The notes: a model not told the origin generated them from the sequence alone. Counted from the first letter of the stretch, positions 17,001 through 55,457 are shown. The stretch: DNA of 57,606 nt from an uncultured Holophagales bacterium (GCA_964636395.1 CAZWRQ010000002.1:1-57606); one strand, 5' to 3'. A program made the numbers and translations.

Positions 17001-17147
17001 GGCGCGATCACGTTCGGCGACGTGAACGCCCCGGGGTCCAGGGTCGCCGCGCTCTCCGCCCACCCGCGGGCAATGCGCCTCCTCGACGCGCTGGGCGTTA
17101 AGCCCTCCATCTCCTATCTGACGAAGGTGCGCAATGACAAGGCCTGA
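14010..17147 (+). CDS. actB: Alternative Complex III subunit ActB (molybdopterin-like domain fused to an FeS domain)
   Basis: It has a Tat signal ([22 protein letters not shown]). The C-terminal ferredoxin-type clusters are [37 protein letters not shown] and CMEACPTGA. Length is 1045 aa. Confidence 0.9.
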
Positions 17148-18630: not shown

Positions 18631-18633
18631 GCC

Positions 18634-19188
18634 ATGTTCACGCCCGTCTCGAAGAAAGGCGTGCTCGGACACTTCTGCGAGCCCGACGAGGCGCTCGCGG
18701 CCGCCGCGAAGGTCCGCGACGCCGGCTTCTCGCACTTCGACTTCCTGACTCCCTTCCCGATCCACGGGATGGAGGAGGCGATGGGACAGAAGCGCTCCTG
18801 GATCCCCTGGGCGACCGGGGCCCTCGCGCTCTGCGGCATCCTCTTCGCCCAGGGCCTCCAGAACTGGGTGATGATCTTCGACTGGCCGATGAACTTCGGC
18901 GGGAAGCCGTTCTGGTCGTGGCCGTCGTTCATCCCGATCACGTTCGAGGCGATGGTCTTCTGGGCCGCCATCGGGAGCGCGCTCGTGGCGATCGCCGCCG
19001 GGAAGCGGGACACCGTCCCACAGCCGCCGCCGACGGAGATCGAGACGGGGGCCACCGTCGACCGCTTCGTCCTCTGGATCAGCGCGACCGACCCGAAGTG
19101 GAGCGATTCCGCGACGCCGGAGTTCGTGAAGGGCCTCGGCGCGAACGGCGTGCGCCTCGTCGACCTCGAGGGAGGCTCCGATGCGTAG
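18634..19188 (+). CDS. actD: Alternative Complex III subunit ActD
   Basis: Position and size match ActD. It has a soluble N-terminal domain followed by two TM helices. Confidence 0.75.
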   Translation: MFTPVSKKGVLGHFCEPDEALAAAAKVRDAGFSHFDFLTPFPIHGMEEAMGQKRSWIPWATGALALCGILFAQGLQNWVMIFDWPMNFGGKPFWSWPSFIPITFEAMVFWAAIGSALVAIAAGKRDTVPQPPPTEIETGATVDRFVLWISATDPKWSDSATPEFVKGLGANGVRLVDLEGGSDA

Positions 19189-19846
19189 CCCCGCCCGCCT
19201 CCTCTCCATCTTCGTCCTCGCCTCCGCCGCCTCGCTCCTCGCGGCCTGCGACCTCGGCCTCCCAGCCGGCCGGACGCCGCACCGCGAGGGGAACCGCCTC
19301 GACATGGGCGACCAGAGGAAGCTCAAGCCGCAGCGGAAGGACCTCTTCCTCGCGCGAGCGACCGGCCTCATGGAGCCGCAGCCGGGCGCCGTCGCTTGGG
19401 GCGAGGCGCCCTACCCGTACGCCCAGAACGAGGCCGACCGGGCCGGCGCCGAGCTCGTCAACCCGCTCCAGCCGACCCCCGCGGTCCTCGCCCGGGGGAA
19501 GTTCGTCTACGAGAACTTCTGCATCACCTGCCACGGCGAGAAGGGGGCCGGCGACGGAAAGGTCACCGCCCTCTTCCCGAAGCCGCCGAGCCTGATGACG
19601 CAGAAGGTGCGCGACTGGCCCGACGGCCAGCTCGTCCACCGCCCGATGCGCGGCCAGAACTCGATGCCGAGCTACGCGCGGCAGATCGACCAGAACGAGG
19701 CATGGGCCGCCGTCCTCTGGATCCGCGAGATGCAGAAGGGCGAGCCGGTCGCCCCGCCACCGGCGGCGTCGGCCGTGACGCCGGCGACGACGGCCTCCGC
19801 GCCCGCCGCCCCGCAGGCCGCTCCCCCGTCCGGAGGGAAGTCATGA
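19181..19846 (+). CDS. actE: Alternative Complex III monohaem cytochrome c lipoprotein ActE
   Basis: It has a lipobox (LLAAC), a single CITCH haem site and a downstream Met-containing segment (MRGQNSMPSY). Confidence 0.8.
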   Translation: MRSPARLLSIFVLASAASLLAACDLGLPAGRTPHREGNRLDMGDQRKLKPQRKDLFLARATGLMEPQPGAVAWGEAPYPYAQNEADRAGAELVNPLQPTPAVLARGKFVYENFCITCHGEKGAGDGKVTALFPKPPSLMTQKVRDWPDGQLVHRPMRGQNSMPSYARQIDQNEAWAAVLWIREMQKGEPVAPPPAASAVTPATTASAPAAPQAAPPSGGKS

Positions 19847-21054
19847 GCCATCACGAAGCGCACCCTCTCCCCGAGCCTCCCGGCCGCATCGCGCTCCCGG
19901 GCGCCGTCCAGGGCGTCGCGATCGCCCTCGTCCTCCTCGGCGGCGCCGCCCTCGGGTGGGCCTTCACGAAGGACGCGCAGCTCGCCTGGAGCAGCTACCT
20001 CATCGGCGCCTTCTTCGCGCTCGGCCTCGGCGTCTTCGGGGCCGCGTGGCTCGCGATCCTCTACCTCACCCGCGGCAACTGGTCGGTCACGATGCGCCGC
20101 ATCCCCGAGGCGATGACGGCCTGGCTCCTTCCCGGCGGCGTCCTCGCCCTCGCCGCCGGCCTCGGCGCGCACTCGCTCTACCACTGGTCGCACGCCGACG
20201 TCGTCGCGAGCGACCCGCTGCTCCTTCACAAGTCGCCCTTCCTGAACCTTCCGATGTTCTGGGCGCTCACGGGCGCGAGCCTCCTCCTCTGGGTCGTCTT
20301 CGGCGCGGCGCTCGTCGGCGTCTCGCGGAAGCAGGACCGTGAAGGAGGGATCGGGCCGTCGCGCACCGCGCGGACCCTCTCGGCCGTCTTCCTCGTCGTC
20401 TTCGCGCTGACCCTCTCGATCGTCAGCTTCTACTTCCTCATGTCGCTCGACGCCCACTGGTTCTCGACGATGTGGGCCGTCCTCGCCTTCACCGACGTCG
20501 TCCAGACGGGGACCGCGTTCGTGGCGATCGTCGCCGGCTGGCTCGTCCTGACCGGGCGCCTCCGGGGCTTCCTGAACGAGAACCACCTCCACTCGCTCGG
20601 GAAGATGGTCTTCGCCTCGACCGGCTTCTGGGCCTACATCTACTTCTGCCAGCACATGCTCATCTGGTACGCGAACATCCCCGAGGAGACGATCTACTTC
20701 ATCAAGCGCTCCTCGAACGGCTGGCTTCCCTGGCTCCTCCTCCTGCCGGTCGTGAAGTTCGTCGTACCGTTCCTCCTCATGCTCCCCCGCGACGCGAAGC
20801 GCAGCCCGCGCAAGCTCCTCCCGGCGGCTGCGCTCGTCGTCCTCGCCCAGTTCCTGGAGCTCTACGTCATGGTCGCCCCCGCGATGGGGCACGGCGAGCA
20901 CGCCGCCCACGCCCACCTTCCCGTCGTCGAGCTCGCTGCGACGCTCGGCTTCCTCGGCCTCTTCGTCCTCGTCTTCGGGTGGGCGCTCGCACGGCACGAA
21001 GCCGTGCCGCTGAAGGACCCGGCGCTCGCCGAGTGCCTCGACTACCATTCGTGA
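19843..21054 (+). CDS. actF: Alternative Complex III subunit ActF (second NrfD-like membrane subunit)
   Basis: ATG 19843 overlaps the actE stop (ATGA). It is a polytopic membrane protein in the conserved ActF position. Confidence 0.8.
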   Translation: MSHHEAHPLPEPPGRIALPGAVQGVAIALVLLGGAALGWAFTKDAQLAWSSYLIGAFFALGLGVFGAAWLAILYLTRGNWSVTMRRIPEAMTAWLLPGGVLALAAGLGAHSLYHWSHADVVASDPLLLHKSPFLNLPMFWALTGASLLLWVVFGAALVGVSRKQDREGGIGPSRTARTLSAVFLVVFALTLSIVSFYFLMSLDAHWFSTMWAVLAFTDVVQTGTAFVAIVAGWLVLTGRLRGFLNENHLHSLGKMVFASTGFWAYIYFCQHMLIWYANIPEETIYFIKRSSNGWLPWLLLLPVVKFVVPFLLMLPRDAKRSPRKLLPAAALVVLAQFLELYVMVAPAMGHGEHAAHAHLPVVELAATLGFLGLFVLVFGWALARHEAVPLKDPALAECLDYHS

Positions 21055-22358: not shown

Positions 22359-24125
22359 TCACGCGCCGGGAGCGCCCCGCACCCTCCCGAACGCGACCGT
22401 CGAGCGGAGAACCTCGAAGAGGATGCGGAGGCGGGAGACCTTCGTCGGCGCGTCGAGCTGACCCGCCAGGAACCGCCGCAGCGCCTCGCCACGGCGCATC
22501 TTGCCGCTCGAGGTGCGCGGGATCGTCCCCGGCGCGAGGAGACGGACCGTGTGGGGCCGGATGCCCGTGCGGGCCAGGATCGCGCGCCGGATCGCGTCGA
22601 TCGTCCGCTCGTCGTCGTCCCCCGGGTCGGTCGCGCGGGCGCGCTCGGCCAGGACGAGGAGCTGCTCGCCGTCCTCCCCGTCCGGGACGAACCCGAGCGC
22701 GACGGCGCACCCCGCGCGGACGGACTGCAGGCCCGCGAGGCACTCCTCGAACTCCTGCGGCAGGTGATTCGCCCCGCGGATGACGATGACGTTCTTCTCG
22801 CGGCCGCAAACGTAGAGCTCGCCCCCGGCGACGAAGCCGAGGTCCCCGGTGTCGAGCCAGCCGCCGGACAGGACGCTCGCCGTCGCGGCGGGCTGACCGA
22901 AGTACCCCGCCATCACCGAAGGCCCGCGCACGAAGATCCGCCCGACGCGGCGCTCGTCGAGCACGCGGCCGTCGGGATCGCGCACCTCGACGTCCGTGCC
23001 TGGGACCGGCGTCCCGACCGAGGCGATCGCCCGCGTCCCGTCGACGACGTCGCCCGTGGCCGCGAGCCGCACCGGGTCGACGTGGAGCGACCTCACCTCG
23101 CGGCCGGCGGGCGTGAAGGTGACGGCGAGCGCGGCCTCGGCCAGGCCGTAGACGGGCCGCAGGCTCCGCCGGTCGAGCCCGAACGGCTCGAAACGCCGGG
23201 CGAAATCGTCCAGCGAATCGGGAGAGACGGGCTCGGCGCCGCAGAGGGCGTGCCGCCACGAGGAGAGGTCGGCACCGGAGAGCTCCTCGTCCCGCACCTT
23301 CCGGGCGCAGAGCGCGAAGGCGAAGCTCGGCGCCACGGAGATCGTGGCGCGATGGCGGGCGATCGCCCGCAGCCAGAGGGCCGGTTTCGCCAGGAAGAGC
23401 TCGGGGGGCATCAGGACGAGCGGGCCCGGGTAGTAGACGGCCTGGAGGAGGCAGCCGATCAGGCCCATGTCGTGGTAGAGCGGCAGCCAGGAGACTCCCT
23501 TCTGCGGCACGGCGTCCTCCGCGGGGAGCAGCGCCCGGAGGGCCGCGAGCTGGGCCATCAGGCTCGCGTGCGAGAGGGCGACGGGACTGGGCTCCGCCGT
23601 CGACCCGGACGAGAACTGGATCAACCCGAGCGCGTCGGGCCCGACGACCGCCTCGAGCTCGCCGCCCTCGCCGAGCTCTTCCGGCGTGAGGCACCCGAGC
23701 GCCGGGCGGGAGGCCTCGATCGCCTTCCCGAGGAGCCTGCGGGCCGCCGCGTCGGCGAGGACGAGGCGCGAGCCGACCGTGGCGATCATCCTCGACGTCG
23801 CGGCGAGGTACTCGGCGAGCCGCCCGAGGCGGACCGGCGGGTAGAGCGGGACGGGCACGCCGCCGGCGAGGAGGACGCCGAAGAAGCAATCGACGAACGC
23901 GGGCGAGGTCGGGAAGACGAGCGCCACGCGATCGCCGGCCGCGACGCCCCGGGCCCGGAGCGCCCCGGCCGTTCGGCGCGCGCGCGCGTGGACCTCCGCG
24001 TACGAATGGAACGTCTCGCGCTCGGCGAGGTCGACGAACGTGAGGCCCGCTCCGCTCGTCGCGCTCGCGGCGAGGGTCTCGTTGACGGTGCCGTGCTTCG
24101 GCCCCGGGAGGGTCGGCCCGTTCAC
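22359..24125 (-). CDS. Fatty acyl-AMP ligase (FAAL-type adenylating enzyme)
   Basis: It is AMP-binding superfamily with a FAAL-like N-terminal region (DRVALVFPTSPAFVDCFFGVLLAGGVPVPLYPP). Its GTG start overlaps the ACP stop. Confidence 0.85.
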   Translation of the reverse strand: MNGPTLPGPKHGTVNETLAASATSGAGLTFVDLAERETFHSYAEVHARARRTAGALRARGVAAGDRVALVFPTSPAFVDCFFGVLLAGGVPVPLYPPVRLGRLAEYLAATSRMIATVGSRLVLADAAARRLLGKAIEASRPALGCLTPEELGEGGELEAVVGPDALGLIQFSSGSTAEPSPVALSHASLMAQLAALRALLPAEDAVPQKGVSWLPLYHDMGLIGCLLQAVYYPGPLVLMPPELFLAKPALWLRAIARHRATISVAPSFAFALCARKVRDEELSGADLSSWRHALCGAEPVSPDSLDDFARRFEPFGLDRRSLRPVYGLAEAALAVTFTPAGREVRSLHVDPVRLAATGDVVDGTRAIASVGTPVPGTDVEVRDPDGRVLDERRVGRIFVRGPSVMAGYFGQPAATASVLSGGWLDTGDLGFVAGGELYVCGREKNVIVIRGANHLPQEFEECLAGLQSVRAGCAVALGFVPDGEDGEQLLVLAERARATDPGDDDERTIDAIRRAILARTGIRPHTVRLLAPGTIPRTSSGKMRRGEALRRFLAGQLDAPTKVSRLRILFEVLRSTVAFGRVRGAPGA

Positions 24126-24418
24126 CGGGCTCCCCCGCCGCCGTCGTCCCGCGGTACGCCTCCGCCCCCCGCTTCGCAGACGGCACGCTCGACGACGCCG
24201 ACGAGCTCCTCGACGGACGTGACCGAGGCGGCCTCGATGCCCGTGAGCTTCACCCGGAAGCGGTCCTCGAGCGCCACGGCGAGGACGAGGGCGCCGAGAG
24301 AATCGACCTGGAGGTCGGTCGCGAGGCCGTGGTGCAGCTCGACCGGGCCGCGGAAATCGAGGTCGGTCGCGAGGGTCCGGCGGATCTCGGCGAGGACCTC
24401 CTCGCGAAGCTCAGCCAC
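24122..24418 (-). CDS. Acyl carrier protein
   Basis: 98 aa with the phosphopantetheine attachment motif LQVDSLGALVL. Confidence 0.85.
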   Translation of the reverse strand: MAELREEVLAEIRRTLATDLDFRGPVELHHGLATDLQVDSLGALVLAVALEDRFRVKLTGIEAASVTSVEELVGVVERAVCEAGGGGVPRDDGGGGAR

Positions 24419-24989
24419 GCGGACCTCCCGGCACGAGCCGTCTTCGCGCTTCGAAGGCCTCGGCGTACGCCCTTCCGAGGGCTCGCTCCTCCGCGGGAAT
24501 GCGGTGGGCGAGGAGCGCCGCGTTCAGGGCCGAGAAGACGGCCGCGGTGAGCCAGGCCCCGTGGACCAGGGGGACGGCGGCCATCTCGAGGACGACCGCG
24601 AGGTAGTTCGGGTGACGGAGGAAGCGATACGGACCGTCGGTCACCGGCTCCGCGCCCGGGAAGACGATGACCCGCGTGCTCCAGCGCTCTCCGAGCGTCG
24701 CGACGGCCCACCAGCGCAGCGCCTGGGCCCCGAGGGCCACCGCCAGCGCGGCGAAACCCGGGACGCCCGGGAAGGGCCGCGACAGGAGGAGGACCTCGGC
24801 CGCGCACGCGGCCGGGAAGAGCGCATGGACCCCGACCATGATCGCGTAGGCCCGGCGACCCGTCTCCACGCCGCCGGCCGCGAACGCCCGGCGGGCGTTC
24901 CGGCGCGAGACGACGAGCTCGGCGCCCCTCTCGCAGCCGAGGAGGAGGAGCAGGCCCAGGTAGAGCGCGGCGGAGTCGGGGAACGTCAC
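24411..24989 (-). CDS. ICMT-family (isoprenylcysteine carboxyl methyltransferase-like) membrane methyltransferase
   Basis: It has the motif RFLRHPNYLAVVLEMAAVPL...HRIPAEERAL and multiple TM helices. This is the same family as SrsB in alkylresorcinol clusters. Confidence 0.8.
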   Translation of the reverse strand: MTFPDSAALYLGLLLLLGCERGAELVVSRRNARRAFAAGGVETGRRAYAIMVGVHALFPAACAAEVLLLSRPFPGVPGFAALAVALGAQALRWWAVATLGERWSTRVIVFPGAEPVTDGPYRFLRHPNYLAVVLEMAAVPLVHGAWLTAAVFSALNAALLAHRIPAEERALGRAYAEAFEARRRLVPGGPRG

Positions 24990-25002
24990 GTCGATCGCAC
25001 CT

Positions 25003-26082
25003 CTACCACTCGAGGAGGACGAGCTCCGAGCAGAAGCCGGGGCCCATCGCCAGGAGGAGCCCGCGATCTCCCTTCACCGGCTCACCGGAGGCCAGGAGCT
25101 CTCCGAGGACGAAGAGGACGGACGCGGAGGAGAGGTTCCCGATCTCCCGGAGCGACTGCCAGGAACGGGCGAGGGCCGACTCGGGAAGAGAGAGAGCGCC
25201 CTCGAACGCCTGGAGCACCCGCGGGCCGCCGGTGTGCGCGATCCAGTGGCGGATCGCCGAGCGGTCGAGGCCGTGCGCGGCGAGGAAGGCGTCGACGTCG
25301 CGGGCCACGTTCTCGCGCACGACGTCGGGCACCCGGGCCGAAAGGACCACCTTGAAGCCCGAGTCGACGACGTCCCACCCCATGACACGCTCCGTGCCGG
25401 GGTAGAACGAGGAGGCGGACGCGACGAGGGCGGGGCCGGCTCCCGGGCCGCGCTCGCCGCCCGTCAGGACGACCGCGGCCGCGCCGTCGCCGAAGAGGCC
25501 GGACGCGATGATGTTCGGGATCGACAGGTCGTCCCGCTGGAGGGTCAGCGAGCAGAGCTCCACGGAGAGGAGGACGGCGACTCCGCCGGGCACGGCGGCG
25601 AGGAGGTCCGCGGCGCGCGAGAGCCCGGCCGCCCCGCCGGCGCAGCCGAGGCCGAAGAGGGGCGAGCGCCTCACGTCGCGCCGCAGGCCGACCCGGTCGA
25701 CGAGCCGGGCGTCGATGCTCGGGGTCGCGATTCCGGTCGTCGTCACGAAGACGAGGTGATCGACGTCGGAAGGCGAGAGCCGGGCCCGCGCGAGCGCGTC
25801 CCGGACCGCGATCTCGCCGAGGCCGACCGCGGCCGCGGTCCACGCTTCGTTGCGCTCGGCGAACGTCCGGAGGTCCGGATACGCCGCCAGCGGGAGCGCC
25901 AGGTGCCTGCCCGAGACCTGGACGGCCCTGTGGATCGCCTCCAGGCGCTCCGGGTTGAAGTGGGCCTCGCCCCAGGCCGCGCTCAGCGCGGCGGTGAGGC
26001 TCTCCTGGTCGGCGTAGTGCGCCGGCAGGGCCCGGCCCACGGCGCGGATGCGGGCAGGTCCACGGGCGTCTGCTTCGAGCAT
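25003..26082 (-). CDS. Type III polyketide synthase (chalcone/stilbene synthase family)
   Basis: It has the catalytic Cys context (LFGLGCAGGAAG), the His context (WIAHTGGPRVL) and the Asn context (GNLSSASVLFVL). Start set at internal ATG 26082 (359 aa); the ORF track extends to 26238. Confidence 0.9.
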   Translation of the reverse strand: MLEADARGPARIRAVGRALPAHYADQESLTAALSAAWGEAHFNPERLEAIHRAVQVSGRHLALPLAAYPDLRTFAERNEAWTAAAVGLGEIAVRDALARARLSPSDVDHLVFVTTTGIATPSIDARLVDRVGLRRDVRRSPLFGLGCAGGAAGLSRAADLLAAVPGGVAVLLSVELCSLTLQRDDLSIPNIIASGLFGDGAAAVVLTGGERGPGAGPALVASASSFYPGTERVMGWDVVDSGFKVVLSARVPDVVRENVARDVDAFLAAHGLDRSAIRHWIAHTGGPRVLQAFEGALSLPESALARSWQSLREIGNLSSASVLFVLGELLASGEPVKGDRGLLLAMGPGFCSELVLLEW

Positions 26083-26167
26083 TCCGGCAGAGCGTACGCG
26101 ACTTCGGCCGCCGGCACTCGTGGCGGCCGGCCCGGGAGGGACCGCGCCCTGCCGTTTCGGCCCCGAG

Positions 26168-26196
26168 CCGATCCGTACCGATTGCGTACGGATTGG
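26168..26196. promoter_or_regulatory. Imperfect 11-bp inverted repeat (core ATCCGTAC-N7-GTACGGAT) in the divergent promoter region between the type III PKS operon and the lipoprotein gene
   Basis: Read directly: CCGATCCGTACCGATTGCGTACGGATTGG. The 8-bp core arms at 26171-26178 and 26186-26193 are perfect. Confidence 0.35.
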
Positions 26197-26239
26197 CCAC
26201 GGACGCCCCAGTACAATTGCCTCAAACAGGAGGTCCACG

Positions 26240-27935: not shown

Positions 27936-29890
27936 GGTGCGACCTTGCGGAAGAGCTTCCCGAAGCGGGTCATCGCCGCGACGTTCGAGACCTTCACTTT
28001 CCCGAGGAGGAAGGCGGTCTCCGGCGACTGCTGCCCGCTCTCGATCGCGAGGTAGGTCTTCTCCGTCGTCGTGACGACGCAGTCGGGCGCTCCCTCGTGC
28101 CCCTCGAGCGTCCGGCAGAAGCCGTCCTCGACGAGGACCGTCCAGTCGCTCCGCGCGGCGTCCCGGAATCGGAAGTGGAACCGGGCGTTCCAGCCCTGCG
28201 CACGGTCGGCGCGGAAGCGGAGCGGGAGCGTCTCGAAGAGCTCCTCGACGCTCCGCGGGACCGGGAGCTTCATCGCCAGGGAGGTCGAACCGACCTCCGG
28301 AACGGCCCGGAACGAGGCCGGCGCGGGGGCCGGCTCCGGGAAGAAGGCGGGTTCCGTCAACTCGACGTCCGCGGGCGGCGGCGCCGGCGCCGGCGGGGCG
28401 AACGACGGGACCGTCGCATCGACGGCGGGCGTCGCGGGCTCGGGCCCGGGCTCGGGCACGCCTGCGAACGTGGTCTCGGGCGCGGGCCCGAACGACGCGT
28501 CCGGCGGCGGGAGCTCGGGGCCGGCGCCGGGAGGCGCCGGGAACTCCGAGAAGACCGCGTCGAGCGACTCGGTGGCGTCGGCGACGAAGAGGTCCGGGAC
28601 GAGCTCGCCCGCGAACCCGTCGGGAGAGGCGTCGGCTTCCGGGTCGGCGGTCTCGGCGGCGGGAGGCCGTTCGTCCGCGCCGACGCCCCCGGCGGCGCCT
28701 CCGCCGGCTTCCGCGTCCGCGCGCTCCTTTCTCCCCGGGAAGACGACGCCGTCGATCGCGGACTTCGCGATCACCTCCCGCATGATCTCGCTCGTCCCGG
28801 CGACGATCGTCCCGAAGCGCGCGTCGCGGAAGAAGCGCTCCATCGGGAACTCCTCGACCGTGCCGTAGCCCCCGAAGAACTGGAGGCACTCGTCGGCCGT
28901 CCGCTTCGCGAGCTCCGTGGCGAGGAGCTTCGCCATGCACGCCTCGGCGACGGGGTTCTCGCCCCTCTCGTGGAGCCAGGCGGCGTGGTAGACGAGCTGA
29001 GCGGCCGCCTCGAGCTCGGCGTGGAGGTCGGCGAGGCGGTGGCGGATCGCCTGGAACTTCCCGATCGGCCTGCCGAACGCCTCCCGCGAGAGGACGTAGC
29101 GCCGGGTCTCCTCGAGCGCGAGGCGAGCGCTCCCGACCGAGGTCGCCGCCGTGACGAGCCGCTCGAGGACGAACGTCTCCATGATCAGGAAGAAGCCCTC
29201 GTTCTCGGCACCGACGAGGTTGCCGAGCGGGACGCGGACGTCCGTGAACGTCAGCTCGGCCGTGTCCGAGCAGTGCCAGCCCATCTTCCGGAGGCGCGAG
29301 CGCGAAAAGCCGGGCGTGTCGGCCTCGACGACGACGAGGCTGATCCCGCCGGCGCCGGCGTCCGCGGCGGTCCGGCAGGCGACGACGACGAAGTCCCCCT
29401 CGACGCCGTTCGTGATCCAGGTCTTCGCGCCGTCGATCACCCAGGCGTCGCCCTCGCGCCGCGCGGTCGTCCGGATCGCGGCGACGTCGGAGCCTGTATC
29501 GGGCTCGGAGATCGCGATCGCGCCGACCTTCGTCCCGGCCACGGACGGGACGAGCCAGCGGCGCTTCTGCTCTTCGGTACCGTGGAGGGCGATCGCCCCC
29601 GTCGCGATGAACTGCTGCACCGAGACGGCCGCGACGAACCCGCCCATGCGCGAGCGCGGCAGCTCCTCGAGGAGGGCGATCGCGTGGAAGATCGAGGCGT
29701 CGGCCCCGCCGACCTCCTCCGGTGAGAGGACGCCGAGGAAGCCGAGGTCTCCCATCCGGCGGAAGACGTCCCGCGGGATCCGCCGCGCCTCTTCCCACTC
29801 GCGCGCGCGCGGCGCGACCTCTCCCTCGAGGAACTGGCGGACCGAGCGACGAAAGCTCTCGTGCTCTTCGCCGAAGTAGATCGACGTCAT
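27932..29890 (-). CDS. Acyl-CoA dehydrogenase fused through a Pro/Ala-rich linker to a C-terminal SCP2 sterol-carrier-like domain
   Basis: ATG 29890. ACAD motifs are present (AISEPDTGSDVAAI, FGRPIGKFQAIRHRLADL, GGYGTVEEFPMERFFRDAR). About 190 aa of low-complexity linker follows, then an SCP2-like end (WTVLVEDGFC...TYLAIESGQQSPETAFLLGKVKVSN). Confidence 0.85.
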   Translation of the reverse strand: MTSIYFGEEHESFRRSVRQFLEGEVAPRAREWEEARRIPRDVFRRMGDLGFLGVLSPEEVGGADASIFHAIALLEELPRSRMGGFVAAVSVQQFIATGAIALHGTEEQKRRWLVPSVAGTKVGAIAISEPDTGSDVAAIRTTARREGDAWVIDGAKTWITNGVEGDFVVVACRTAADAGAGGISLVVVEADTPGFSRSRLRKMGWHCSDTAELTFTDVRVPLGNLVGAENEGFFLIMETFVLERLVTAATSVGSARLALEETRRYVLSREAFGRPIGKFQAIRHRLADLHAELEAAAQLVYHAAWLHERGENPVAEACMAKLLATELAKRTADECLQFFGGYGTVEEFPMERFFRDARFGTIVAGTSEIMREVIAKSAIDGVVFPGRKERADAEAGGGAAGGVGADERPPAAETADPEADASPDGFAGELVPDLFVADATESLDAVFSEFPAPPGAGPELPPPDASFGPAPETTFAGVPEPGPEPATPAVDATVPSFAPPAPAPPPADVELTEPAFFPEPAPAPASFRAVPEVGSTSLAMKLPVPRSVEELFETLPLRFRADRAQGWNARFHFRFRDAARSDWTVLVEDGFCRTLEGHEGAPDCVVTTTEKTYLAIESGQQSPETAFLLGKVKVSNVAAMTRFGKLFRKVAP

Positions 29891-29945
29891 GCGCACCCTC
29901 GGGGTGAAATAATCGGGCCGGCCCCGGAACGAAGAGATTACGCCT

Positions 29946-31340
29946 GTGCTCGACGCCCTGCCCGCACCCCCGGCCTCCTCCCTGGCCCCTTCCGGCTTCG
30001 GGACGCTCGAGACGGTCTTCGCCGCGCTCGGGCGGGTCCTCGTCGTCCTCGACCGCGACTTCCGTGTCCTCCGCGCGAGCCGATCGCTGGACGACCTCGC
30101 CCGTCCCGGGGCCGTCGAGGCGGCCCTCGGCCGCCCGATCGAGGAGCTCGTCGGGGCGCGCCTCTTCGGGCCGTCGGAATCGCTCCGGGAAGCGCTCGAG
30201 CAGGGGCACCGCGAGGAGGGCCGCCGGGCCATCCTCCGCTGCGGAGAGGAGAGCGCCCGCCTCGTCTCGCTCACCGCCGCGGTCCTCCCGAGCGACGTGA
30301 CGAGCCACTGCGACCCGCGGGCGCGCTACATCGTCGTCCTTCGTCCGGCGGAGACCGACAACGGCCTCGTGCAGTCGATGCTCTCGTCCCACGGCCTCGT
30401 GGCTCGCTCCCCGGCGATGCGCGGGATCGTCCACCTCGTCGAGTCGCTCCACCGGAGCGAGGCGACGGTCCTCGTCACCGGAGAGAGCGGCACCGGCAAG
30501 GAGCTGATCGCCCGGGCGCTCCACGCGAACTCCCCGCGCTGCACCGGGCCGTTCGTCGCCGTCAACTGCGGGGCCCTGCCGGGCGACCTCCTCGAGAGCG
30601 AGCTCTTCGGCCACGTCCGCGGCGCCTTCACCGGGGCCGTCCGCGACCGCGTGGGGCGCATCGACCTCGCCCGGGGCGGGACGCTGTTCCTCGACGAGGT
30701 CGGGGACATCCCGCCGCACCTGCAGGTCAAGCTCCTCCGCGTCCTCCAGGAGAGGCGGTTCGAGCGGGTCGGCGAGAGCACCCCCCGCCCGATGGACGCC
30801 CGGGTCATCGCCGCCACGAACGTCGACCTCGCGGAGGCGATCCGGATCGGGCGCTTCCGCGACGACCTCTACTACCGCCTGCGCGTCGTCCCGATCCACG
30901 TCCCTCCGCTCCGGGAGCGGGTCGAGGACATCCCCCTCATCGCCCACCACCTCCTCGCCCACATCGGAGGGCGCGAGGGGCGGGCTCTCCTCCTCTCTCC
31001 CGACACGATCGTCGCGATGGCCCGCTATCCGTGGCCCGGGAACGTCCGCGAGCTCGGCAACGCCCTCGAGTACGCCGTCGCGACCTGCACGGGCCAGACG
31101 ATCCAGATCGAGAACCTGCCGCCCGAGCTGCGACAGGGAGCGGAGCGGAGCGCCCTCGAGCCGGCCTCCCCGCAGGACGCCGCGCCGCTCGGCGACGCTC
31201 TCGCGGAAGACCCGGCCGAAAGGCTCCGGATCCTCCAGACCCTCGAGTCTGCGCGGTGGAACCGAGGGCGCGCCGCCGAGCTGCTCGGCATGAGCCGGAG
31301 CACGCTCTGGCGGCGGATGAAGGAGCTCGGGATCGAGTGA
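29946..31340 (+). CDS. Sigma-54-dependent transcriptional activator (PAS-like sensor, AAA+ domain and Fis-type HTH)
   Basis: It has Walker A (GESGTGKELIARALH), the GAFTGA motif (RGAFTGAV), ESELFGH and a C-terminal HTH (AAELLGMSRSTLWRRMKELGI). Confidence 0.9.
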   Translation: MLDALPAPPASSLAPSGFGTLETVFAALGRVLVVLDRDFRVLRASRSLDDLARPGAVEAALGRPIEELVGARLFGPSESLREALEQGHREEGRRAILRCGEESARLVSLTAAVLPSDVTSHCDPRARYIVVLRPAETDNGLVQSMLSSHGLVARSPAMRGIVHLVESLHRSEATVLVTGESGTGKELIARALHANSPRCTGPFVAVNCGALPGDLLESELFGHVRGAFTGAVRDRVGRIDLARGGTLFLDEVGDIPPHLQVKLLRVLQERRFERVGESTPRPMDARVIAATNVDLAEAIRIGRFRDDLYYRLRVVPIHVPPLRERVEDIPLIAHHLLAHIGGREGRALLLSPDTIVAMARYPWPGNVRELGNALEYAVATCTGQTIQIENLPPELRQGAERSALEPASPQDAAPLGDALAEDPAERLRILQTLESARWNRGRAAELLGMSRSTLWRRMKELGIE

Positions 31341-31741
31341 GCTCCCGCCGGGACTTCCTCGGGACCGCCTGGGCCGCCGCGGGCACGGCCGCGGCCGCCG
31401 CCGGCACGGCCGTCCTCGGCCGGGCCCTCTCCGGGTCGCCCGAGCCCGAGAGGAGCGTCCGCCTCCCCGCCGAGCTCCTCGCGCGCGCCGAGAAGGAGGG
31501 AGGGCTCGTCCACGAAGGGCTCCACGTCCGCGGCCCGGCCGCCGCCCCGGTCGTCCTCGACCTCACCTGCACGCACCTGCGCTGCCGCGTCGCTCCGGTC
31601 GAGGGCGGAGGCTTCTCGTGCCCCTGCCACGCGAGCCGGTACGACGCCGAAGGGCGCGTGACGGCGGGCCCCGCCGCGCGGCCGCTGGTCCGGCCACGCC
31701 TCTCTCCCGACGGCGCGGGATTCGTGGCACGCCTCTCGTGA
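31337..31741 (+). CDS. Rieske [2Fe-2S] protein with a Tat signal
   Basis: GTG 31337 overlaps the regulator stop (GTGA). It has SRRDFLG twin-arginine signal plus a TM, and the Rieske boxes CTHLRC and CPCHAS. Confidence 0.85.
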   Translation: MSSRRDFLGTAWAAAGTAAAAAGTAVLGRALSGSPEPERSVRLPAELLARAEKEGGLVHEGLHVRGPAAAPVVLDLTCTHLRCRVAPVEGGGFSCPCHASRYDAEGRVTAGPAARPLVRPRLSPDGAGFVARLS

Positions 31742-32559
31742 TCCTCGGCCGCGTCACGTTCGGCCTCCTCGCCGTCGCGCTCCTCTCCGGCCTCGCCCTC
31801 GCCCCGTTCTGGTCGGCGGGACGCGCGCTCGAGAGCCTCGAGACGCTCAACGGGGCCACCCCGTGGGGCTTCTTCCTCCGCGGCGTCCACGCGTTCTCCG
31901 CGTGGGGGTTCCTCCTCGGGACGCTCGCCCACCTCGCGGAAGTCCTCTGGAAGCGGACCGAGCGCCGTCTTCGGCCCGCCGTCTGGTGGCGCTCGATCTC
32001 CCTCCTCCCCGTAGCCGTCCTCGCGCTCCTCGGCGGCTTCCTGATGCGAGGCGACGCCGAGGCTCAGGCGGCGGTCGCCGTCTGGCGCGAGATCTCGACG
32101 AGCGTCCCGATCGCAGGCCGAGCCCTCGCCGCGCTCCTCCTCGGCCTCCCCGGCTCCGACCTCGCCCCGGTCGCGCTCCACCATGCCGGGACCTTCACGC
32201 TCCTCGCCTGGCTCCTGACGGCCGAGCACGGCGGGACGCTCGTCCCCGATCTCCGCTCGACCGTCCTCGCCGCGCTCGCGAGCTTCGCGGCCGCGGGCCT
32301 CTTCCCCGTCTCTCTCGGGCCGCCGGTCGCGCCCGTCGGCGCTCTCCTCCTCGGCCCCTGGTACCTCCTCGGCCTCCAGGGAGCCCTCCTCGTCCTTCCC
32401 GTCGCGGCCGGCTGGCTCCTGCCGCTCGCCCTCCTCCTCGCGGTCGGGCTCGTGAGGCACGTCGACGGGCGCGCCCGGGCGGCCCTCCTCGCGCTGGCGG
32501 CCGCCTGGGGCGCGGGCTACCTCGCCCTGACGCTCCGCCTCCTCCTCGCCGTCCGCTGA
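31738..32559 (+). CDS. Cytochrome b (b6-like) membrane subunit of a Rieske/cyt b complex
   Basis: GTG 31738 overlaps the Rieske stop. A His pair is spaced 13 residues apart (H-AFSAWGFLLGTLA-H) and a second pair 14 apart (H-AGTFTLLAWLLTAE-H). A GPWY motif sits where PEWY is expected. Confidence 0.75.
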   Translation: MILGRVTFGLLAVALLSGLALAPFWSAGRALESLETLNGATPWGFFLRGVHAFSAWGFLLGTLAHLAEVLWKRTERRLRPAVWWRSISLLPVAVLALLGGFLMRGDAEAQAAVAVWREISTSVPIAGRALAALLLGLPGSDLAPVALHHAGTFTLLAWLLTAEHGGTLVPDLRSTVLAALASFAAAGLFPVSLGPPVAPVGALLLGPWYLLGLQGALLVLPVAAGWLLPLALLLAVGLVRHVDGRARAALLALAAAWGAGYLALTLRLLLAVR

Positions 32560-34370
32560 TGTTCCGGGCCCAGGCGCTCCTCCTCGCGCTCCTCCTCGCG
32601 CTCGCGGGGCTGCTCGGGGCCCTCGGGCGCGAGCGGCAGCGCGCCGCGGCTCTCGGGCGCGCTCCCGATCGCGCCGGCGGGAAGGTGGAGCGCTGCGTGA
32701 CGTGCCACGTCCGCCCCGAGGAGGACCCCGGCGGGGCGCACGCCCGCGCCGCCGTCGGCTGCTCCTCCTGCCACCTCGGCAACCCGCTCGCGTTCGACAA
32801 GGGGCGCGCGCACGCCGGAATGGAGCCGGAGCCGGGCGCGCTCCGGAGCGTCGCGCGCACCTGCGGCCGGAGCGGCTGCCACGTTCGCGAGACGGCCCGC
32901 GTCGCCTCTTCGCTCATGGCGCGGGCGAGCGGGATCGTCTCGGTGAACCGGTGGGCCTTCGGCGAGATCCCCCAGCCGCGCGGCACGGCCACGATGGCCG
33001 ACCTCCTCGCGAAGGAGGAGCGGACCCCCGCGGAAGATCACCTCGCGAAGCTCTGCGCGGGCTGCCACCTCCACGCGCTCCGCGCCAGCCGGGACGACGC
33101 GATTCACGGCAACGGCAGCGGCTGCTCCGCCTGCCACGTCGCGCGCCGGCTCCCGGGCGCGGTGCCGCGGCCGCATCCCGCCGTCGACGCCCGCGTCACC
33201 GACGACCGCTGCCTCGGCTGCCACAGCCGGAGCGGGAGGATCGCGCTGACGTACGAAGGGCTCTACGAAGTCGAGCCGGCGCAGGCCGCCGCGCTCGGCT
33301 CGGCCGCGACGACGCTCCACGACGGGCGCCCCGCCGCGCACGCCGAGGTGGACGTCCACCGCCGCGCCGGCCTCTCGTGCGTCGACTGCCACCTCCACAC
33401 CGACCTGATGGGCGACGGGACCACGCACGAGCACTCCGAGAGCCAGGTCGAGATCACCTGCGAGGCATGCCACGGCCCCGTCCGCGAGGGAGGCGAGACG
33501 ACCTGGGCCGAGGTGAGGGACCCGATCACCCGCGACCTGCTCCGGCAGCAGGGGGAGACGCGGCCGCCCGGCGAGCGTGTCCGCCTCGGCCGGCACGGGA
33601 CGCCGGTCTGGAACCTCCGCCCGTCGGAGGGCGGGTGGTCGACGCTCCGCAAGCGGCAGGGAGTCGCGCTCGCCACGAGGCCGACTCCGGCCGACGCGAA
33701 CCATCGCCTCCCCGGCCACGAGCGCCTCACGTGCAGCGCCTGCCACTCCGCCTGGGCGCCGACCTGCTCGACCTGCCACACGCGTTACGACCCCGCGGGC
33801 GCGCAGTGGGACTTCGCGAAGGCGGCCGAGACGCCGGGGCGCTGGGTCGAGAGCTCCGAGGGGTACGACGCACGGCCTCCGGCGCTCGCCGTGAGGCCGG
33901 ACGGCCGAATCGCCCCGGCGATCCCCGGGATGGTGATGGAGCTCGACGCCGCCGCGGTCTCCGGCCCGCGCGTCTCGCGCCGGCTCTACGCGTCCCTCGA
34001 CCCGCACTCCACCGGGAAGAAGGCGCGCGACTGCGCGAGCTGCCATCTCTCCGCGTGGGCGCTCGGACTGGGCACCGGGGCGCTCTCCTTCGGGAGCGCC
34101 GCGGCGACGTTCCGTCCGGTCGAGCCTGCCGCGGAGGACGCCCGGATGGCCGCCGACGGCTGGACCCGCCTCGACGCCCACTCGCCCGGGATCGGCACCC
34201 GCGTCGGCCTCCGCTCGCTCGACGCGAGCGAGCTCCGCCGCGCCCTCGCCGTCGGCGCCTGCCTCCCCTGCCACGCGAAGGCAACCGACCCGGTCTGGAG
34301 AGACTTCGCCGCCTCGAAGGCGCGTCTCGCGCGGGGCGGGACGAGGTGCGGGTTCCGAGCCGGCGCGTAG
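32559..34370 (+). CDS. Multihaem cytochrome c (11 CxxCH plus one CX4CH), membrane-anchored or secreted
   Basis: ATG 32559 overlaps the cyt b stop (TGATG). It has an N-terminal hydrophobic helix. Haem motifs are CVTCH, CSSCH, CGRSGCH, CAGCH, CSACH, CLGCH, CVDCH, CEACH, CSACH, CSTCH, CASCH and CLPCH. Confidence 0.85.
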   Translation: MFRAQALLLALLLALAGLLGALGRERQRAAALGRAPDRAGGKVERCVTCHVRPEEDPGGAHARAAVGCSSCHLGNPLAFDKGRAHAGMEPEPGALRSVARTCGRSGCHVRETARVASSLMARASGIVSVNRWAFGEIPQPRGTATMADLLAKEERTPAEDHLAKLCAGCHLHALRASRDDAIHGNGSGCSACHVARRLPGAVPRPHPAVDARVTDDRCLGCHSRSGRIALTYEGLYEVEPAQAAALGSAATTLHDGRPAAHAEVDVHRRAGLSCVDCHLHTDLMGDGTTHEHSESQVEITCEACHGPVREGGETTWAEVRDPITRDLLRQQGETRPPGERVRLGRHGTPVWNLRPSEGGWSTLRKRQGVALATRPTPADANHRLPGHERLTCSACHSAWAPTCSTCHTRYDPAGAQWDFAKAAETPGRWVESSEGYDARPPALAVRPDGRIAPAIPGMVMELDAAAVSGPRVSRRLYASLDPHSTGKKARDCASCHLSAWALGLGTGALSFGSAAATFRPVEPAAEDARMAADGWTRLDAHSPGIGTRVGLRSLDASELRRALAVGACLPCHAKATDPVWRDFAASKARLARGGTRCGFRAGA

Positions 34371-50575: not shown

Positions 50576-50692
50576 GGTGTCTCCTCTTTCGACAGGCCTC
50601 GCCTGCCACGTTCGTTTCGGCCGGCCACGCTGGCCGGTCCGCGGGTTTCAGCACTCGGGATGCCGGCGCGGCGAAAAGGTTTCAGCCGAGGA

Positions 50693-50727: not shown

Positions 50728-50773
50728 CGCGAAACCGGAGCGGACCTGCGAGCATCAAGGGAGCGTGACGACG

Positions 50774-55447: not shown

Positions 55448-55457
55448 GAGAGGAGAG

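What the first reader, a model, noticed from the sequence alone, without database searches (positions are those of the whole stretch)
29946..34370. Sigma-54 activator, Rieske, b6-like cytochrome b and ~12-haem cytochrome c as one overlapping unit: an atypical quinol-oxidising complex
**Gene arrangement**
- Four genes are chained by start/stop overlaps: GTGA at 31337, GTGA at 31738 and TGATG at 32557-32561.

**Cytochrome b**
- It is only 273 aa.
- Its haem-ligand spacing is b6/Firmicute-like: 13 residues in helix B and 14 in helix D.
- It carries GPWY (32353-32364) where bc1/b6f complexes have the Qo-site PEWY motif. This suggests a compact fused cyt b/subunit IV with an altered Qo site.

**Cytochrome c partner**
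- Instead of cytochrome c1 or f, the partner is a 603-aa cytochrome with 11 CxxCH sites plus an unusual CGRSGCH (CX4CH, 32862-32882).

**Interpretation**
- Having the enhancer-binding protein as the first cistron of the structural operon is itself unusual.
- With ACIII also present, the cell would have two non-canonical quinol:cytochrome c modules. This one may feed a long periplasmic haem wire, possibly toward the MtrAB-like conduit.
Basis: partly seen in the sequence, partly recalled or inferred. Interest (0 to 1): 0.65.

Follow-up and report, generated by a model that had tools for sequence, protein, structure and literature searches.

The report
Rieske/cytochrome b complex with 12-haem partner
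Four overlapping genes in an acidobacterial genome encode a sigma-54 regulator plus a compact respiratory quinol-oxidising complex with a 12-haem cytochrome; it is a real member of a complex type already recognised from genomes but never studied biochemically.

Summary
All the sequence observations hold. Four genes are chained by GTGA/GTGA/TGATG overlaps: a sigma-54 activator, a 134-aa TAT-exported Rieske protein, a 273-aa cytochrome b with GPWY, and a 603-aa cytochrome c with 11 CxxCH sites plus CX4CH.

The cytochrome b models confidently as a 7-helix fused b6/subunit IV fold and has no haem-ci cysteine. The CX4CH site is an ordinary CxxCH in some homologues, so there are 12 haems. About 25 of the top 150 representative relatives are natural cytochrome b::12-haem fusions, which argues that the two proteins form one complex.

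The type is not new. Kao & Hunte (2014) defined a 'GPWY clade' with predicted high-potential Rieske proteins. The 12-haem protein is a full-length homologue of Geobacter ExtM, from the extMNOPQS 'bc complex' cluster.

Two things look undescribed. First, the activator-first arrangement is conserved in about 24 Thermoanaerobaculia/Holophagales genomes and in one deltaproteobacterial genome. Second, in at least four phyla the module sits next to a PhsABC-like molybdoenzyme and YeeE/YedE transporters, behind a sigma-54 promoter. The window's own clade lacks that partner nearby.

A link to the Mtr-like conduit is unsupported. Verdict: a new member of a known but uncharacterised kind.

The parts
29891..29945 (+). 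55-nt intergenic region between the divergent acyl-CoA dehydrogenase gene and the EBP gene. It holds conserved AT-rich GTGAAATAATCGGG (29904-29917) and AGAGATTACGCC (29933-29944), a possible -10-like element and ribosome-binding site.
   Evidence: Conserved in the 10 closest loci and, more loosely, in L025. No sigma-54 (GG-N10-GC) match here. No sigma-70 consensus was scored. Function is inferred only.
29946..31340 (+). Sigma-54 enhancer-binding protein, 464 aa. It has an N-terminal PAS-like sensor (about 30024-30239) with conserved Cys98 and Cys121, an AAA+ domain (30399-30899) with Walker A at 30480-30503 and GAFTGA at 30621-30638, and a Fis-type HTH (31218-31328).
   Evidence: Pfam Sigma54_activat 2.6e-68, AAA_lid_14, HTH_8 and a weak PAS_4 hit. 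Motif coordinates. Sensor-domain conservation. Full-length orthologues lie next to the same module in L037 (52%), L069 (55%) and L067 (51%).
31337..31741 (+). Small Rieske [2Fe-2S] protein, 134 aa. It has a TAT signal SRRDFL (31343-31360), a transmembrane anchor, and cluster boxes CTHLRC (31568-31585) and CPCHASRY (31619-31642). The latter is the 'S-Y' signature predicted to mean high potential.
   Evidence: Pfam Rieske 1.3e-08; NCBIfam Rieske_proteo 2.1e-13; TAT_signal_seq 0.0014. Motifs are conserved in 21 relatives, which carry S-Y or S-F. The signature rule comes from PMC4122944.
31738..32559 (+). Compact 7-helix cytochrome b, 273 aa, a fused b6 + subunit IV equivalent. Inferred ligands: haem bL H51 (31888-31890) and H149 (32182-32184); haem bH H65 (31930-31932) and H164 (32227-32229). 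The Qo motif GPWY is at 32353-32364. There is no haem-ci cysteine.
   Evidence: AF2 model pLDDT 95.2, pTM 0.92, 7 transmembrane helices. Foldseek matches full-length cytochrome b of bc1/bcc complexes, TMq 0.7-0.81. The profile matches b6 residues 35-196 (3e-15) and aligns H51/H65 with b6 H86/H100. Invariant residues.
32559..34370 (+). Membrane-anchored dodecahaem cytochrome c, 603 aa, ExtM-like. It has an N-terminal hydrophobic helix (32565-32654), 11 CxxCH motifs (first at 32694, last at 34274) and CX4CH at 32862-32882.
   Evidence: NCBIfam ExtM 6e-75, 252.7 bits, covering 41-581 of the protein and 17-585 of 599 profile positions. Haem sites are invariant and the CX4CH site is CxxCH in some homologues. 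It is 36% identical (1e-90) to the C-terminal part of the natural cytochrome b::MHC fusion P0254. The N-terminal helix comes from the AF2 model.

Best explanation
**What the genes encode**
- The last three genes encode one inner-membrane Rieske/cytochrome b-type quinol:cytochrome c oxidoreductase of the 'GPWY' clade.

**How it most likely works**
- Shown from sequence and model: all the parts of a Qo-type site are present. These are a TAT-exported Rieske protein with the disulfide-type cluster boxes, and a bis-haem cytochrome b with a cd loop and a GPWY ef loop.
- Inferred: (mena)quinol is oxidised at this periplasmic-side site. One electron goes to the [2Fe-2S] cluster and on to the nearest haem of a membrane-anchored ExtM-like 12-haem cytochrome. 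That cytochrome replaces c1/f and acts as a periplasmic wire or electron store towards a terminal acceptor.
- Inferred, less certain: the second electron crosses the membrane through haems bL and bH to re-reduce quinone, as in a Q cycle.

**Regulation**
- The first gene encodes a PAS-type sigma-54 activator that is translationally coupled to the structural genes.
- In relatives its orthologue sits beside the same module. There, a sigma-54 promoter preceded by GTTTC/GAAAC inverted repeats drives a neighbouring PhsABC-like molybdoenzyme/YeeE-YedE operon.
- The family therefore most likely serves respiration linked to sulfur or selenium compounds.
- In the window's own clade only the activator and the bc-like module remain together, and the terminal partner is unknown.
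For: **One complex**
- Overlapping start and stop codons are conserved across relatives.
- Among the top 150 representative relatives, 27 are longer than 700 aa and 25 of these carry 12 haem motifs fused to the cytochrome b.
- The haem spacing in the fusions matches the window protein and the linker has no extra transmembrane helix.
- Pairwise comparison with fusion P0254 gives 2e-32 for the cytochrome b part and 1e-90 for the MHC part.

**Cytochrome b fold and ligands**
-.

**Rieske features and S-Y signature**
-, with the signature rule from PMC4122944.

**Twelve haems**
-.

**ExtM homology**
-. The Geobacter cluster is described in PMC2825233 and PMC5877670.

**Sigma-54 link**
- The EBP has GAFTGA, a Walker A motif and an HTH.
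- Orthologous EBPs lie next to the module in L037, L067 and L069.
- Sigma-54-type promoters lie directly upstream of the Rieske gene in L034 (TGGCGCGCCCCTTGCT) and L030.
- Sigma-54-type promoters also lie upstream of the PhsA-like gene in L012-L015, L017, L024, L033, L034, L036, L067, L069 and L072. GTTTC/GAAAC repeat clusters were seen in front of them; among the 26 loci scanned for such clusters they occur in L012, L013, L067 and L069, each time as the only cluster in the locus.

**Phs-like association**
-.
Against: - No biochemical data exist for any member of the clade.
- The direction of electron flow, the quinone species and the existence of a Qi site were not tested. The N-terminus that helps build the Qi pocket in bc1 is almost absent in the window's clade.
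- A predicted high-potential Rieske protein paired with mostly bis-His multihaem centres is energetically awkward for forward flow.
- No sigma-54 promoter was found in front of or inside the window's four-gene unit.
- The PhsABC-like genes are not in the 57.6-kb window or near the module in the window's clade. The sulfur/selenium link is therefore guilt by association from more distant relatives.
- The AF2 model of the MHC is poor (pLDDT 60).
Confidence: 0.6

Rival explanations
1. Same complex, run in reverse. Electrons enter from the periplasm through the 12-haem cytochrome, for example from oxidation of Fe(II) or of a reduced sulfur compound. They pass via the high-potential Rieske centre and are pushed onto the quinone pool at the expense of proton-motive force, as in the 'uphill' bc1 of Acidithiobacillus.
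For: The Rieske protein has the S-Y signature predicted to mean above 260 mV. Kao & Hunte group the APWY/GPWY clades as a system distinct from PEWY/PDWY and argue that APWY complexes work in reverse. The window also encodes cbb3 oxidase and ACIII, which could form a downhill branch.
Against: Reverse operation was proposed for APWY, not GPWY. No donor-oxidising enzyme is adjacent in the window. Geobacter proteomics cited in PMC5877670 associate the Ext proteins with Fe(III) reduction, which implies forward flow.
Confidence: 0.2
2. A non-bifurcating quinol dehydrogenase or transmembrane electron shuttle. The compact cytochrome b has no functional Qi site, so there is no Q cycle. The module would simply connect the quinone pool, or a cytoplasmic-side partner via haem bH, to periplasmic multihaem chemistry, functionally like CymA/NapC or CbcL.
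For: The N-terminal segment is very short in the window's clade. The C-terminal three helices are too divergent for any sequence match to solved cytochrome b or subunit IV. Dibrova et al. note there is no evidence of Q-cycling outside the bc1 and b6f subfamilies.
Against: Both b-haem ligand pairs and the n-side WWRS motif are invariant. Conserving a complete low-potential chain is most easily explained by a working bifurcation.
Confidence: 0.15
3. The 12-haem cytochrome is not a subunit of the Rieske/cytochrome b pair. It would be an independent periplasmic reductase, for example for selenite, tellurite or a metal, that merely shares an operon.
For: In L002 and L005 the MHC gene is separated from the cytochrome b gene by an 8.8-kb cassette. 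The Desulfurivibrionaceae pair has no adjacent MHC.
Against: Covalent cytochrome b::MHC fusions are common and have matching haem spacing. TGATG-type coupling is conserved. The MHC is retained downstream even after the insertion.
Confidence: 0.05

Closest known systems
'GPWY clade' Rieske/cytochrome b complexes (Kao & Hunte 2014, Genome Biol Evol, PMC4122944)
   Same: The Qo motif is GPW[Y/F]. The partner Rieske protein has the S-Y or S-F signature (predicted Mid+ to high potential). The cytochrome b is associated with, or fused to, a multihaem c-type cytochrome (Ignavibacterium album example). No member has been characterised biochemically.
   Different: [quoted passage not shown] The published description does not mention the sigma-54 activator or the PhsABC-like neighbour, and it describes the fused cytochrome domain as a 'triheme c7' domain. 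I could not place the window protein on their tree because the sequences and supplements were not available.
Geobacter sulfurreducens extMNOPQS (GSU2930-2935) 'bc complex' cluster, part of extHIJKLMNOPQS
   Same: It combines a 12-haem ExtM homologue (full-length HMM match), a roughly 14-kDa Rieske protein and a b6-like cytochrome b in one cluster. It is also linked to rhodanese and selenium- or sulfur-type genes, and to selenite/tellurite reduction via ExtI.
   Different: In Geobacter the cytochrome b is split (ExtP 23 kDa plus membrane protein ExtQ). The gene order is M-N-O-P-Q. Extra cytochromes (ExtN, ExtS, ExtKL), a porin and a rhodanese are present, and no EBP is described as the first cistron. 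The window proteins score far below the NCBIfam equivalog cut-offs (ExtM 253 versus 800; ExtP 51 versus 290).
Cytochrome b6f and Firmicute menaquinol:cytochrome c reductase
   Same: The four-helix N-terminal core aligns with b6 (3e-15). The His spacing is 13/14. The total is seven transmembrane helices.
   Different: This is a single fused polypeptide. It has no CxGG cysteine, so no haem ci/cn. It has GPWY instead of PEWY/PDWY, and a 12-haem partner instead of cytochrome f or a dihaem c.
Anammox (Kuenenia) Rieske/cytochrome b complexes with multihaem subunits
   Same: A Rieske/cytochrome b core is combined with large multihaem c-type subunits instead of c1, and unusual energetics have been proposed (PMC12954380).
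   Different: The multihaem proteins belong to different families (hexahaem, octahaem HAO-like) and extra NAD(P)-linked subunits are present. Homology of the c-type subunits was not tested here.
Desulfobulbaceae / cable-bacteria 'truncated bc' (Rieske + cytochrome b only)
   Same: The same compact cytochrome b family (GPWF, about 30% identity over the full length) and the same small Rieske protein. A sigma-54-like motif and an NtrC-type EBP lie nearby.
   Different: No adjacent multihaem cytochrome. The genomic context is different (asd-rsmD-coaD).
Alternative complex III (also encoded in the window, 14010-21054)
   Same: The presumed role is the same: quinol oxidation feeding periplasmic c-type haems.
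   Different: The architecture is unrelated (NrfD-type membrane subunits and a molybdopterin-like/FeS subunit). It has no Rieske protein and no cytochrome b.

Membership tests
Rieske/cytochrome b (bc-type) complex superfamily | Cytochrome b with two His pairs on helices B and D that ligate haems bL and bH | tested here: met
   H51/H65 and H149/H164 are invariant in 65 sequences. H51/H65 align with b6 H86/H100. A confident 7-helix model superposes on solved cytochromes b.
Rieske/cytochrome b (bc-type) complex superfamily | Rieske protein with CxHxGC...CxCH boxes (including the disulfide cysteines) and TAT export | tested here: met
   CTHLRC, CPCH and SRRDFL are present. The features are conserved in 21 relatives.
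Rieske/cytochrome b (bc-type) complex superfamily | Qo motif (xxW[Y/F]) at the start of the ef helix | tested here: met
   GPWYLLGLQGALLVLP lies at the start of helix 208-217. G206-P207-W208 are invariant. GPWY is listed as a natural Qo-motif variant.
GPWY clade (Kao & Hunte 2014) | GPW[Y/F] motif, a Rieske protein with S-Y/S-F signature, and frequent fusion to or association with a multihaem cytochrome c | tested here: met
   Among the 104 representatives in which the motif search matched, 93 carry GPWY or GPWF.
GPWY clade (Kao & Hunte 2014) | Phylogenetic placement inside the published clade | not testable with these tools
   The published sequences and supplements are not held, and no named clade members were retrievable.
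Cytochrome b6f-type complex | Separate b6 (4 transmembrane helices) and subunit IV (3 helices); CxGG cysteine binding haem ci/cn | tested here: not met
   It is a single 273-aa chain with 7 helices. The position aligned to b6 Cys35 is Ile/Leu, giving xLGR.
Cytochrome b6f-type complex | His spacing of 13 (helix B) and 14 (helix D) | tested here: met
   Classifying this spacing as b6-like rests on established knowledge (Widger et al. 1984).
Cytochrome bc1-type complex | 8-helix cytochrome b, 13/13 His spacing, monohaem cytochrome c1 | tested here: not met
   It has 7 helices, 13/14 spacing and a 12-haem partner.
Geobacter Ext (extMNOPQS) system | Equivalog-level matches to ExtM, ExtO, ExtP and ExtQ, plus the presence of ExtN and ExtS | tested here: not met
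   ExtM scores 252.7 bits against a cut-off of 800, and ExtP 51.2 against 290. There is no ExtN- or ExtS-like gene in the unit. The system is homologous but is not the same system.
Bacterial sigma-54 enhancer-binding proteins | AAA+ domain with GAFTGA, Walker A/B motifs and a C-terminal HTH | tested here: met
Bacterial sigma-54 enhancer-binding proteins | A cognate -24/-12 promoter with upstream activator sites | tested here: inconclusive
   Found in relatives, in front of the PhsA-like and Rieske genes. Not found at the window's unit. The only GTTTC/GAAAC cluster in the window (50614-50743) lies before a bufferin-like operon and could equally be an ECF-type promoter.

The most novel reading that the evidence does not exclude
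The activator-Rieske-GPWY cytochrome b-dodecahaem unit may be the quinol-side half of an undescribed respiratory system for chalcogen compounds (thiosulfate, polysulfide or selenite). This system would be controlled by sigma-54, conserved across at least four phyla, and evolutionarily related to the Geobacter ext cluster. Its other half would be a PhsABC-like molybdoenzyme with YeeE/YedE transporters and rhodanese. The window's clade would have uncoupled the bc-like half and rewired it, with its activator, to a different and still unknown acceptor.
Probability: 0.3. Interest if true: 0.7.

Novelty: new member of a known kind. Interest (0 to 1): 0.45.

Why it matters
GPWY-type Rieske/cytochrome b complexes with multihaem partners are widespread. 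The profile search found 2,514 representative clusters, and they occur in Acidobacteriota, Myxococcota, Desulfobacterota (including relatives of cable bacteria), Bacteroidota and Gemmatimonadota. Yet none has been purified, so their direction, energetics and substrates are unknown.

This analysis adds three practical handles:
- The natural cytochrome b::12-haem fusions argue that the cytochrome is a true subunit.
- A conserved dedicated sigma-54 activator and its probable operator/promoter could be used to find the inducing signal.
- A recurrent PhsABC-like/YeeE partner suggests a chemistry to test, and ties the family to the unexplained Geobacter ext 'selenite/tellurite' cluster.

For the window organism, the finding means a third quinol-oxidising route besides ACIII and the oxidases.

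Tried and rejected
- **Sigma-54 promoter in the window.** I searched upstream of the EBP gene, in its 3' end and across the whole window. Matches were at or below chance (13 observed versus about 44 in shuffles at the same score). A conserved GG-N10-GC at -1836 lies inside the acyl-CoA dehydrogenase coding sequence and is explained by coding constraint.
- **Apparent 601-aa EBP+Rieske fusion in L065.** This is a frameshift artefact.
- **C-terminal 108 aa of cytochrome b against PDB.** A profile search gave no hit even at E = 10. Only fold comparison shows the relationship.
- **AF2 model of the MHC.** It reached pLDDT 60, so the Foldseek hits (choline-binding repeats and similar, E above 1) are meaningless. 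A PDB profile search gave only marginal c-type hits.
- **Literature not held.** The Kao & Hunte supplements and Dibrova 2013 were unavailable.
- **Cluster-member names.** Only 'hypothetical protein' was returned.
- **PhsA-like gene in the window's clade.** None of the top 120 homologues sits on a contig of those genomes, and there is none in the window. Absence elsewhere in the genome cannot be shown.
- **GTTTC/GAAAC cluster at 50614-50743.** I considered it as the EBP's target site. It is statistically unique in the window but precedes a bufferin-like RiPP operon next to an ECF sigma gene, so an ECF-type -35 'GAAAC' is an equally good reading.
- **Consensus sigma-70 and terminator scans.** They found nothing, which is uninformative at 73% GC.
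- **Desulfurivibrionaceae sigma-54-like motif.** It lies inside the 3' end of coaD, so its conservation may be due to coding.

Full report
**1. Observation**

The window is about 73% G+C. Its closest relatives are metagenome-assembled genomes labelled Thermoanaerobaculia or Holophagales, in the phylum Acidobacteriota.

- The genes are EBP 29946-31340, Rieske 31337-31741, cytochrome b 31738-32559 and the multihaem cytochrome (MHC) 32559-34370.
- They are joined by GTGA, GTGA and TGATG overlaps.
- The cytochrome b is 273 aa with His at 51, 65, 148, 149 and 164, and GPWY at 32353-32364.
- The MHC is 603 aa with 11 CxxCH motifs and CGRSGCH at 32862-32882.

Profile searches agree with these assignments:
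- The EBP matches Sigma54_activat, AAA_lid and HTH_8, with a weak N-terminal PAS hit. GAFTGA is at 30621-30638.
- The Rieske protein is small and TAT-exported.
- The cytochrome b is recognised only over residues 3-136.
- The MHC matches the NCBIfam model of Geobacter ExtM end to end (6e-75). It scores far below the equivalog cut-off (253 versus 800 bits).

**2. The features are conserved**

- In 65 homologues of the cytochrome b (52-93% identity), H51, H65, H148, H149, H164, WW(83-84) and G206-P207-W208 are invariant.
- In 20 MHC homologues all 11 CxxCH motifs are invariant. The CX4CH site is a plain CxxCH (CGKCH, CGRCH or CGSCH) in five of them, so it is a genuine twelfth haem site carrying a two-residue insertion.
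- The Rieske boxes CTHLxC and PCHxSR[Y/F] and the RR signal are kept in 21 relatives.

**3. Anatomy of the cytochrome b**

- AlphaFold2 with the 65-sequence alignment gives a very confident model (pLDDT 95, pTM 0.92). It has seven transmembrane helices plus the ab, cd1/cd2 and ef surface helices.
- Foldseek aligns the model with full-length cytochromes b of bc1/bcc complexes (TM-score on the query 0.7-0.81).
- By sequence, only the four-helix core is recognisable. It is closest to cytochrome b6 (3e-15), with H51/H65 on b6 H86/H100. A profile of the last 108 residues finds nothing in PDB.
- The residue aligned to the haem-ci cysteine of b6 is Ile/Leu.
- The protein is therefore a compact fused 'b6 + subunit IV' without haem ci. 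It has the b6-like 13/14 His spacing. GPWY sits exactly where PEWY starts the ef helix, and the downstream Leu-Pro also matches my recollection of the bovine and chloroplast sequences.
- With seven helices the C-terminus is periplasmic.

**4. The cytochrome c is a subunit**

- A profile search of 1.84 billion representative proteins finds 2,514 relatives, 84 of them below 1e-30.
- Of the best 150, 115 are at least 240 aa long. Of these, 73 are stand-alone proteins of 240-320 aa and 27 are longer than 700 aa.
- 25 of those 27 long proteins carry 12 haem motifs C-terminal to the cytochrome b, with the same spacing as the window MHC.
- The linker in these fusions has no extra hydrophobic helix, as the topology requires.
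- Fusion P0254 aligns with the window cytochrome b (39% identity, 2e-32) and with the window MHC (36% identity, 1e-90), and the alignment includes the CX4CH site.
- This is Rosetta-stone evidence that the 12-haem protein replaces cytochrome c1/f in one complex.
- The split form in the window uses its own N-terminal hydrophobic helix as an anchor.
- The MHC has no solved relative.

**5. Gene order and regulation**

Gene order:
- The order EBP-Rieske-cytochrome b-MHC recurs in about 24 Thermoanaerobaculia/Holophagales loci. The EBP stop always overlaps the Rieske start as NTGA.
- The same four-gene overlapping unit occurs in a deltaproteobacterial MAG (L069).
- Orthologous EBPs, 51-55% identical over the full length including the sensor domain, also flank the module in Terracidiphilus (L037) and in L067.
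- The sensor is PAS-like with a conserved Cys.

Promoters:
- I found no sigma-54 promoter upstream of or within the window's unit.
- Relatives do show them. TGGCGCGCCCCTTGCT lies just before the Rieske ribosome-binding site in L034, and TGGCAATGCCCGTGCT in L030.
- A conserved -24/-12-type element also lies about 40-60 nt before a downstream PhsA-like gene. It reads TGGCCCGCTTCTTGTA, TGGCTCGGTTCTTGAA, TGGTCCGGGCGTTGCT or CGGAGCGATTTTTGCT in different loci.
- These elements are preceded by GTTTC(A)/(T)GAAAC inverted repeats. In L012, L013, L067 and L069, among the 26 loci scanned, this is the only such cluster in the locus.
- The simplest reading, which is an inference, is this: the EBP is made together with the bc-like module and activates the neighbouring sigma-54 operon, and in some lineages also the module itself.

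**6. The recurrent neighbour**

- In many relatives the module is contiguous with four kinds of genes: a TAT-exported molybdopterin oxidoreductase, a 4Fe-4S subunit, an NrfD-type membrane subunit and one or two YeeE/YedE-family transporters. Rhodanese domains are often present as well.
- The molybdoenzyme's best NCBIfam match is thiosulfate reductase PhsA (461-485 bits, cut-off 694). JGI annotates it as 'thiosulfate/polysulfide reductase chain A'.
- The relatives concerned are:
  - a second Thermoanaerobaculia group (L012-15, 17, 24, 28, 33, 35, 36);
  - Myxococcota/Deltaproteobacteria (L031, L034, L062, L069);
  - Terracidiphilus (L037) and L038;
  - Gemmatimonadales (L039);
  - Bacteroidales (L047);
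  - L066 and L067.
- This parallels the Geobacter ext cluster, in which ExtM/N, Rieske ExtO and cytochrome b ExtP/Q sit with a rhodanese (ExtH), a selenocysteine cytochrome (ExtKL) and a porin implicated in selenite/tellurite reduction (PMC5877670; PMC2825233).
- The window's own clade lacks these genes near the module, and there are none in the 57.6-kb window.
- In its closest outgroup (L025/L072) the Phs-like genes lie about 20 kb away.
- In L002/L005 a lysine-fermentation cassette of about 8.8 kb has been inserted between the cytochrome b and MHC genes.

**7. Comparison with what is known**

- Kao & Hunte (2014) already list GPWY/GPWF among the natural Qo motifs. They define a 'GPWY clade' (delta-Proteobacteria, Ignavibacteria, Nitrospinae; the Ignavibacterium cytochrome b is fused to a multihaem domain).
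- They show that the partner Rieske proteins carry Mid+ to high-potential signatures (S-F or S-Y). They note that nothing is known biochemically.
- The window Rieske protein is CPCH-A-S-R-Y, that is S-Y.
- The system is therefore a member of a recognised but uncharacterised kind.
- It fails the defining tests for b6f (split subunits, haem ci), for bc1 (8 helices, 13/13 spacing, cytochrome c1) and for the Geobacter Ext equivalogs.
- I found no paper in the held library that describes either the activator-first arrangement or the Phs-like association.
- The Ignavibacterium genome paper states that the organism has ACIII instead of the cytochrome b-Rieske complex of its green-sulfur relatives. 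It therefore does not register the fused GPWY cytochrome b that Kao & Hunte later listed for this organism.

**8. Mechanism and uncertainty**

- Shown: the components and their conservation, the fold, the 12 haem sites, the fusions, the operon structure and the sigma-54 elements in relatives.
- Inferred: quinol oxidation at a Qo-type site, with one electron going to the Rieske centre and the 12-haem wire.
- Inferred, less certain: Q-cycle recycling through bL and bH.
- Open questions are the direction of flow, the existence of a Qi site, the quinone type and the terminal partner in this organism. A high-potential Rieske protein paired with multihaem centres leaves room for reverse operation.

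**9. Verdict**

This is a new member of a known, uncharacterised kind. Interest is moderate: the clade is an open problem, and the regulator, the fusions and the Phs-like neighbour make it experimentally approachable.

Noticed in passing
window 50614-50743 (minus strand), with genes 50575-50189 (-) and about 50180-49263 (-): This is the only cluster of GTTTC/GAAAC pentamers in the window: 5 within 140 nt against 0.08 expected. It lies next to a GG-N10-GC element (CGGCATCCCGAGTGCT, 50665-50650) and a 13-nt perfect inverted repeat. It is upstream of a Cys-rich 128-aa secreted protein (bufferin/DUF2282-like NACKGxGGC repeats) and an MbnB/TglH/ChrH (DUF692) gene. It could be the EBP's target site or an ECF-sigma promoter; an ECF sigma gene lies at 51973-52530.
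   Followed up: partly
window 29861-31741 (+): A 626-aa 'shadow' ORF in the Rieske reading frame stays open through the whole EBP gene because of the high G+C content. Gene callers can mis-call it. In relative L065 a 601-aa 'EBP+Rieske' product is a frameshift artefact, not a fusion.
   Followed up: yes
L005 6800-6890; L070 1181-10001; L002: In two close relatives a cassette of about 8.8 kb is inserted between the cytochrome b and 12-haem genes. It carries lysine-fermentation genes (kdd, kce, lysine 2,3- and 5,6-aminomutase). In L005 it begins with a perfect inverted repeat of about 40 nt directly after the cytochrome b stop codon.
   Followed up: partly
L019 9025-10353; L021 2959-4326; L025 8794-10119; L026 8696-10025: A second EBP paralogue lies just downstream of the 12-haem gene in several Thermoanaerobaculia relatives. 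It is 63-69% identical where the alignment is intact and has the same PAS-Cys sensor. In L026 the match is split into two segments.
   Followed up: no
L013, L014, L015, L019, L024, L026, L028 and L036, about 60-100 nt upstream of the EBP start; L012, L017, L033, L035: A conserved palindrome resembling TGATGCAGCTGCATCA, followed by GGCGGATAAT, lies upstream of the EBP gene in one group. In another group the EBP start overlaps the stop of ispH (GTGA), which extends the operon upstream.
   Followed up: no
L040-L064, e.g. L053 5502-6783 (Hydrosulfovibrio ferrireducens CB1MN): Desulfurivibrionaceae carry a stand-alone small Rieske protein plus a compact GPWF cytochrome b after asd-rsmD-coaD, with no multihaem gene. 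A histidine kinase and an NtrC-type EBP lie convergently downstream. A conserved sigma-54-like GGGCGCGGTAYYTGCA lies inside the 3' end of coaD. This is a cultured organism, so it offers an experimental handle.
   Followed up: partly
L037 3876-5306; L072 15630-16886: In Terracidiphilus an unannotated 476-aa gene with a predicted signal peptide lies between the EBP and the Rieske gene. A Toluene_X/FadL-type outer-membrane gene follows the Phs-like/YeeE genes in L072. This may be an outer-membrane uptake channel belonging to the system.
   Followed up: no
window 5328-7799, 14010-21054, 54329-57188: The window also encodes a fused CcoNO cbb3 oxidase, an ACIII-like cluster (ActB-like 1045 aa, NrfD-type ActC, ActD, a monohaem subunit), and a GSU2203-family decahaem cytochrome next to a GSU2204-family CXXCH-containing protein of 576 aa. 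The organism therefore has several parallel quinol-to-periplasm routes.
   Followed up: partly
window 22359-26238 (-): A type III polyketide synthase (chalcone/stilbene synthase-like), a small acyl-carrier-like ORF and an AMP-binding ligase lie between ACIII and the acyl-CoA dehydrogenase. They appear unrelated to the finding.
   Followed up: no
L072 5217-7479 (-): In the closest outgroup genome a second multihaem cytochrome (522 aa) paired with a Ni_hydr_CYTB-type cytochrome b sits next to further YeeE/rhodanese genes. This is another candidate quinol-linked sulfur module in the same neighbourhood.
   Followed up: no
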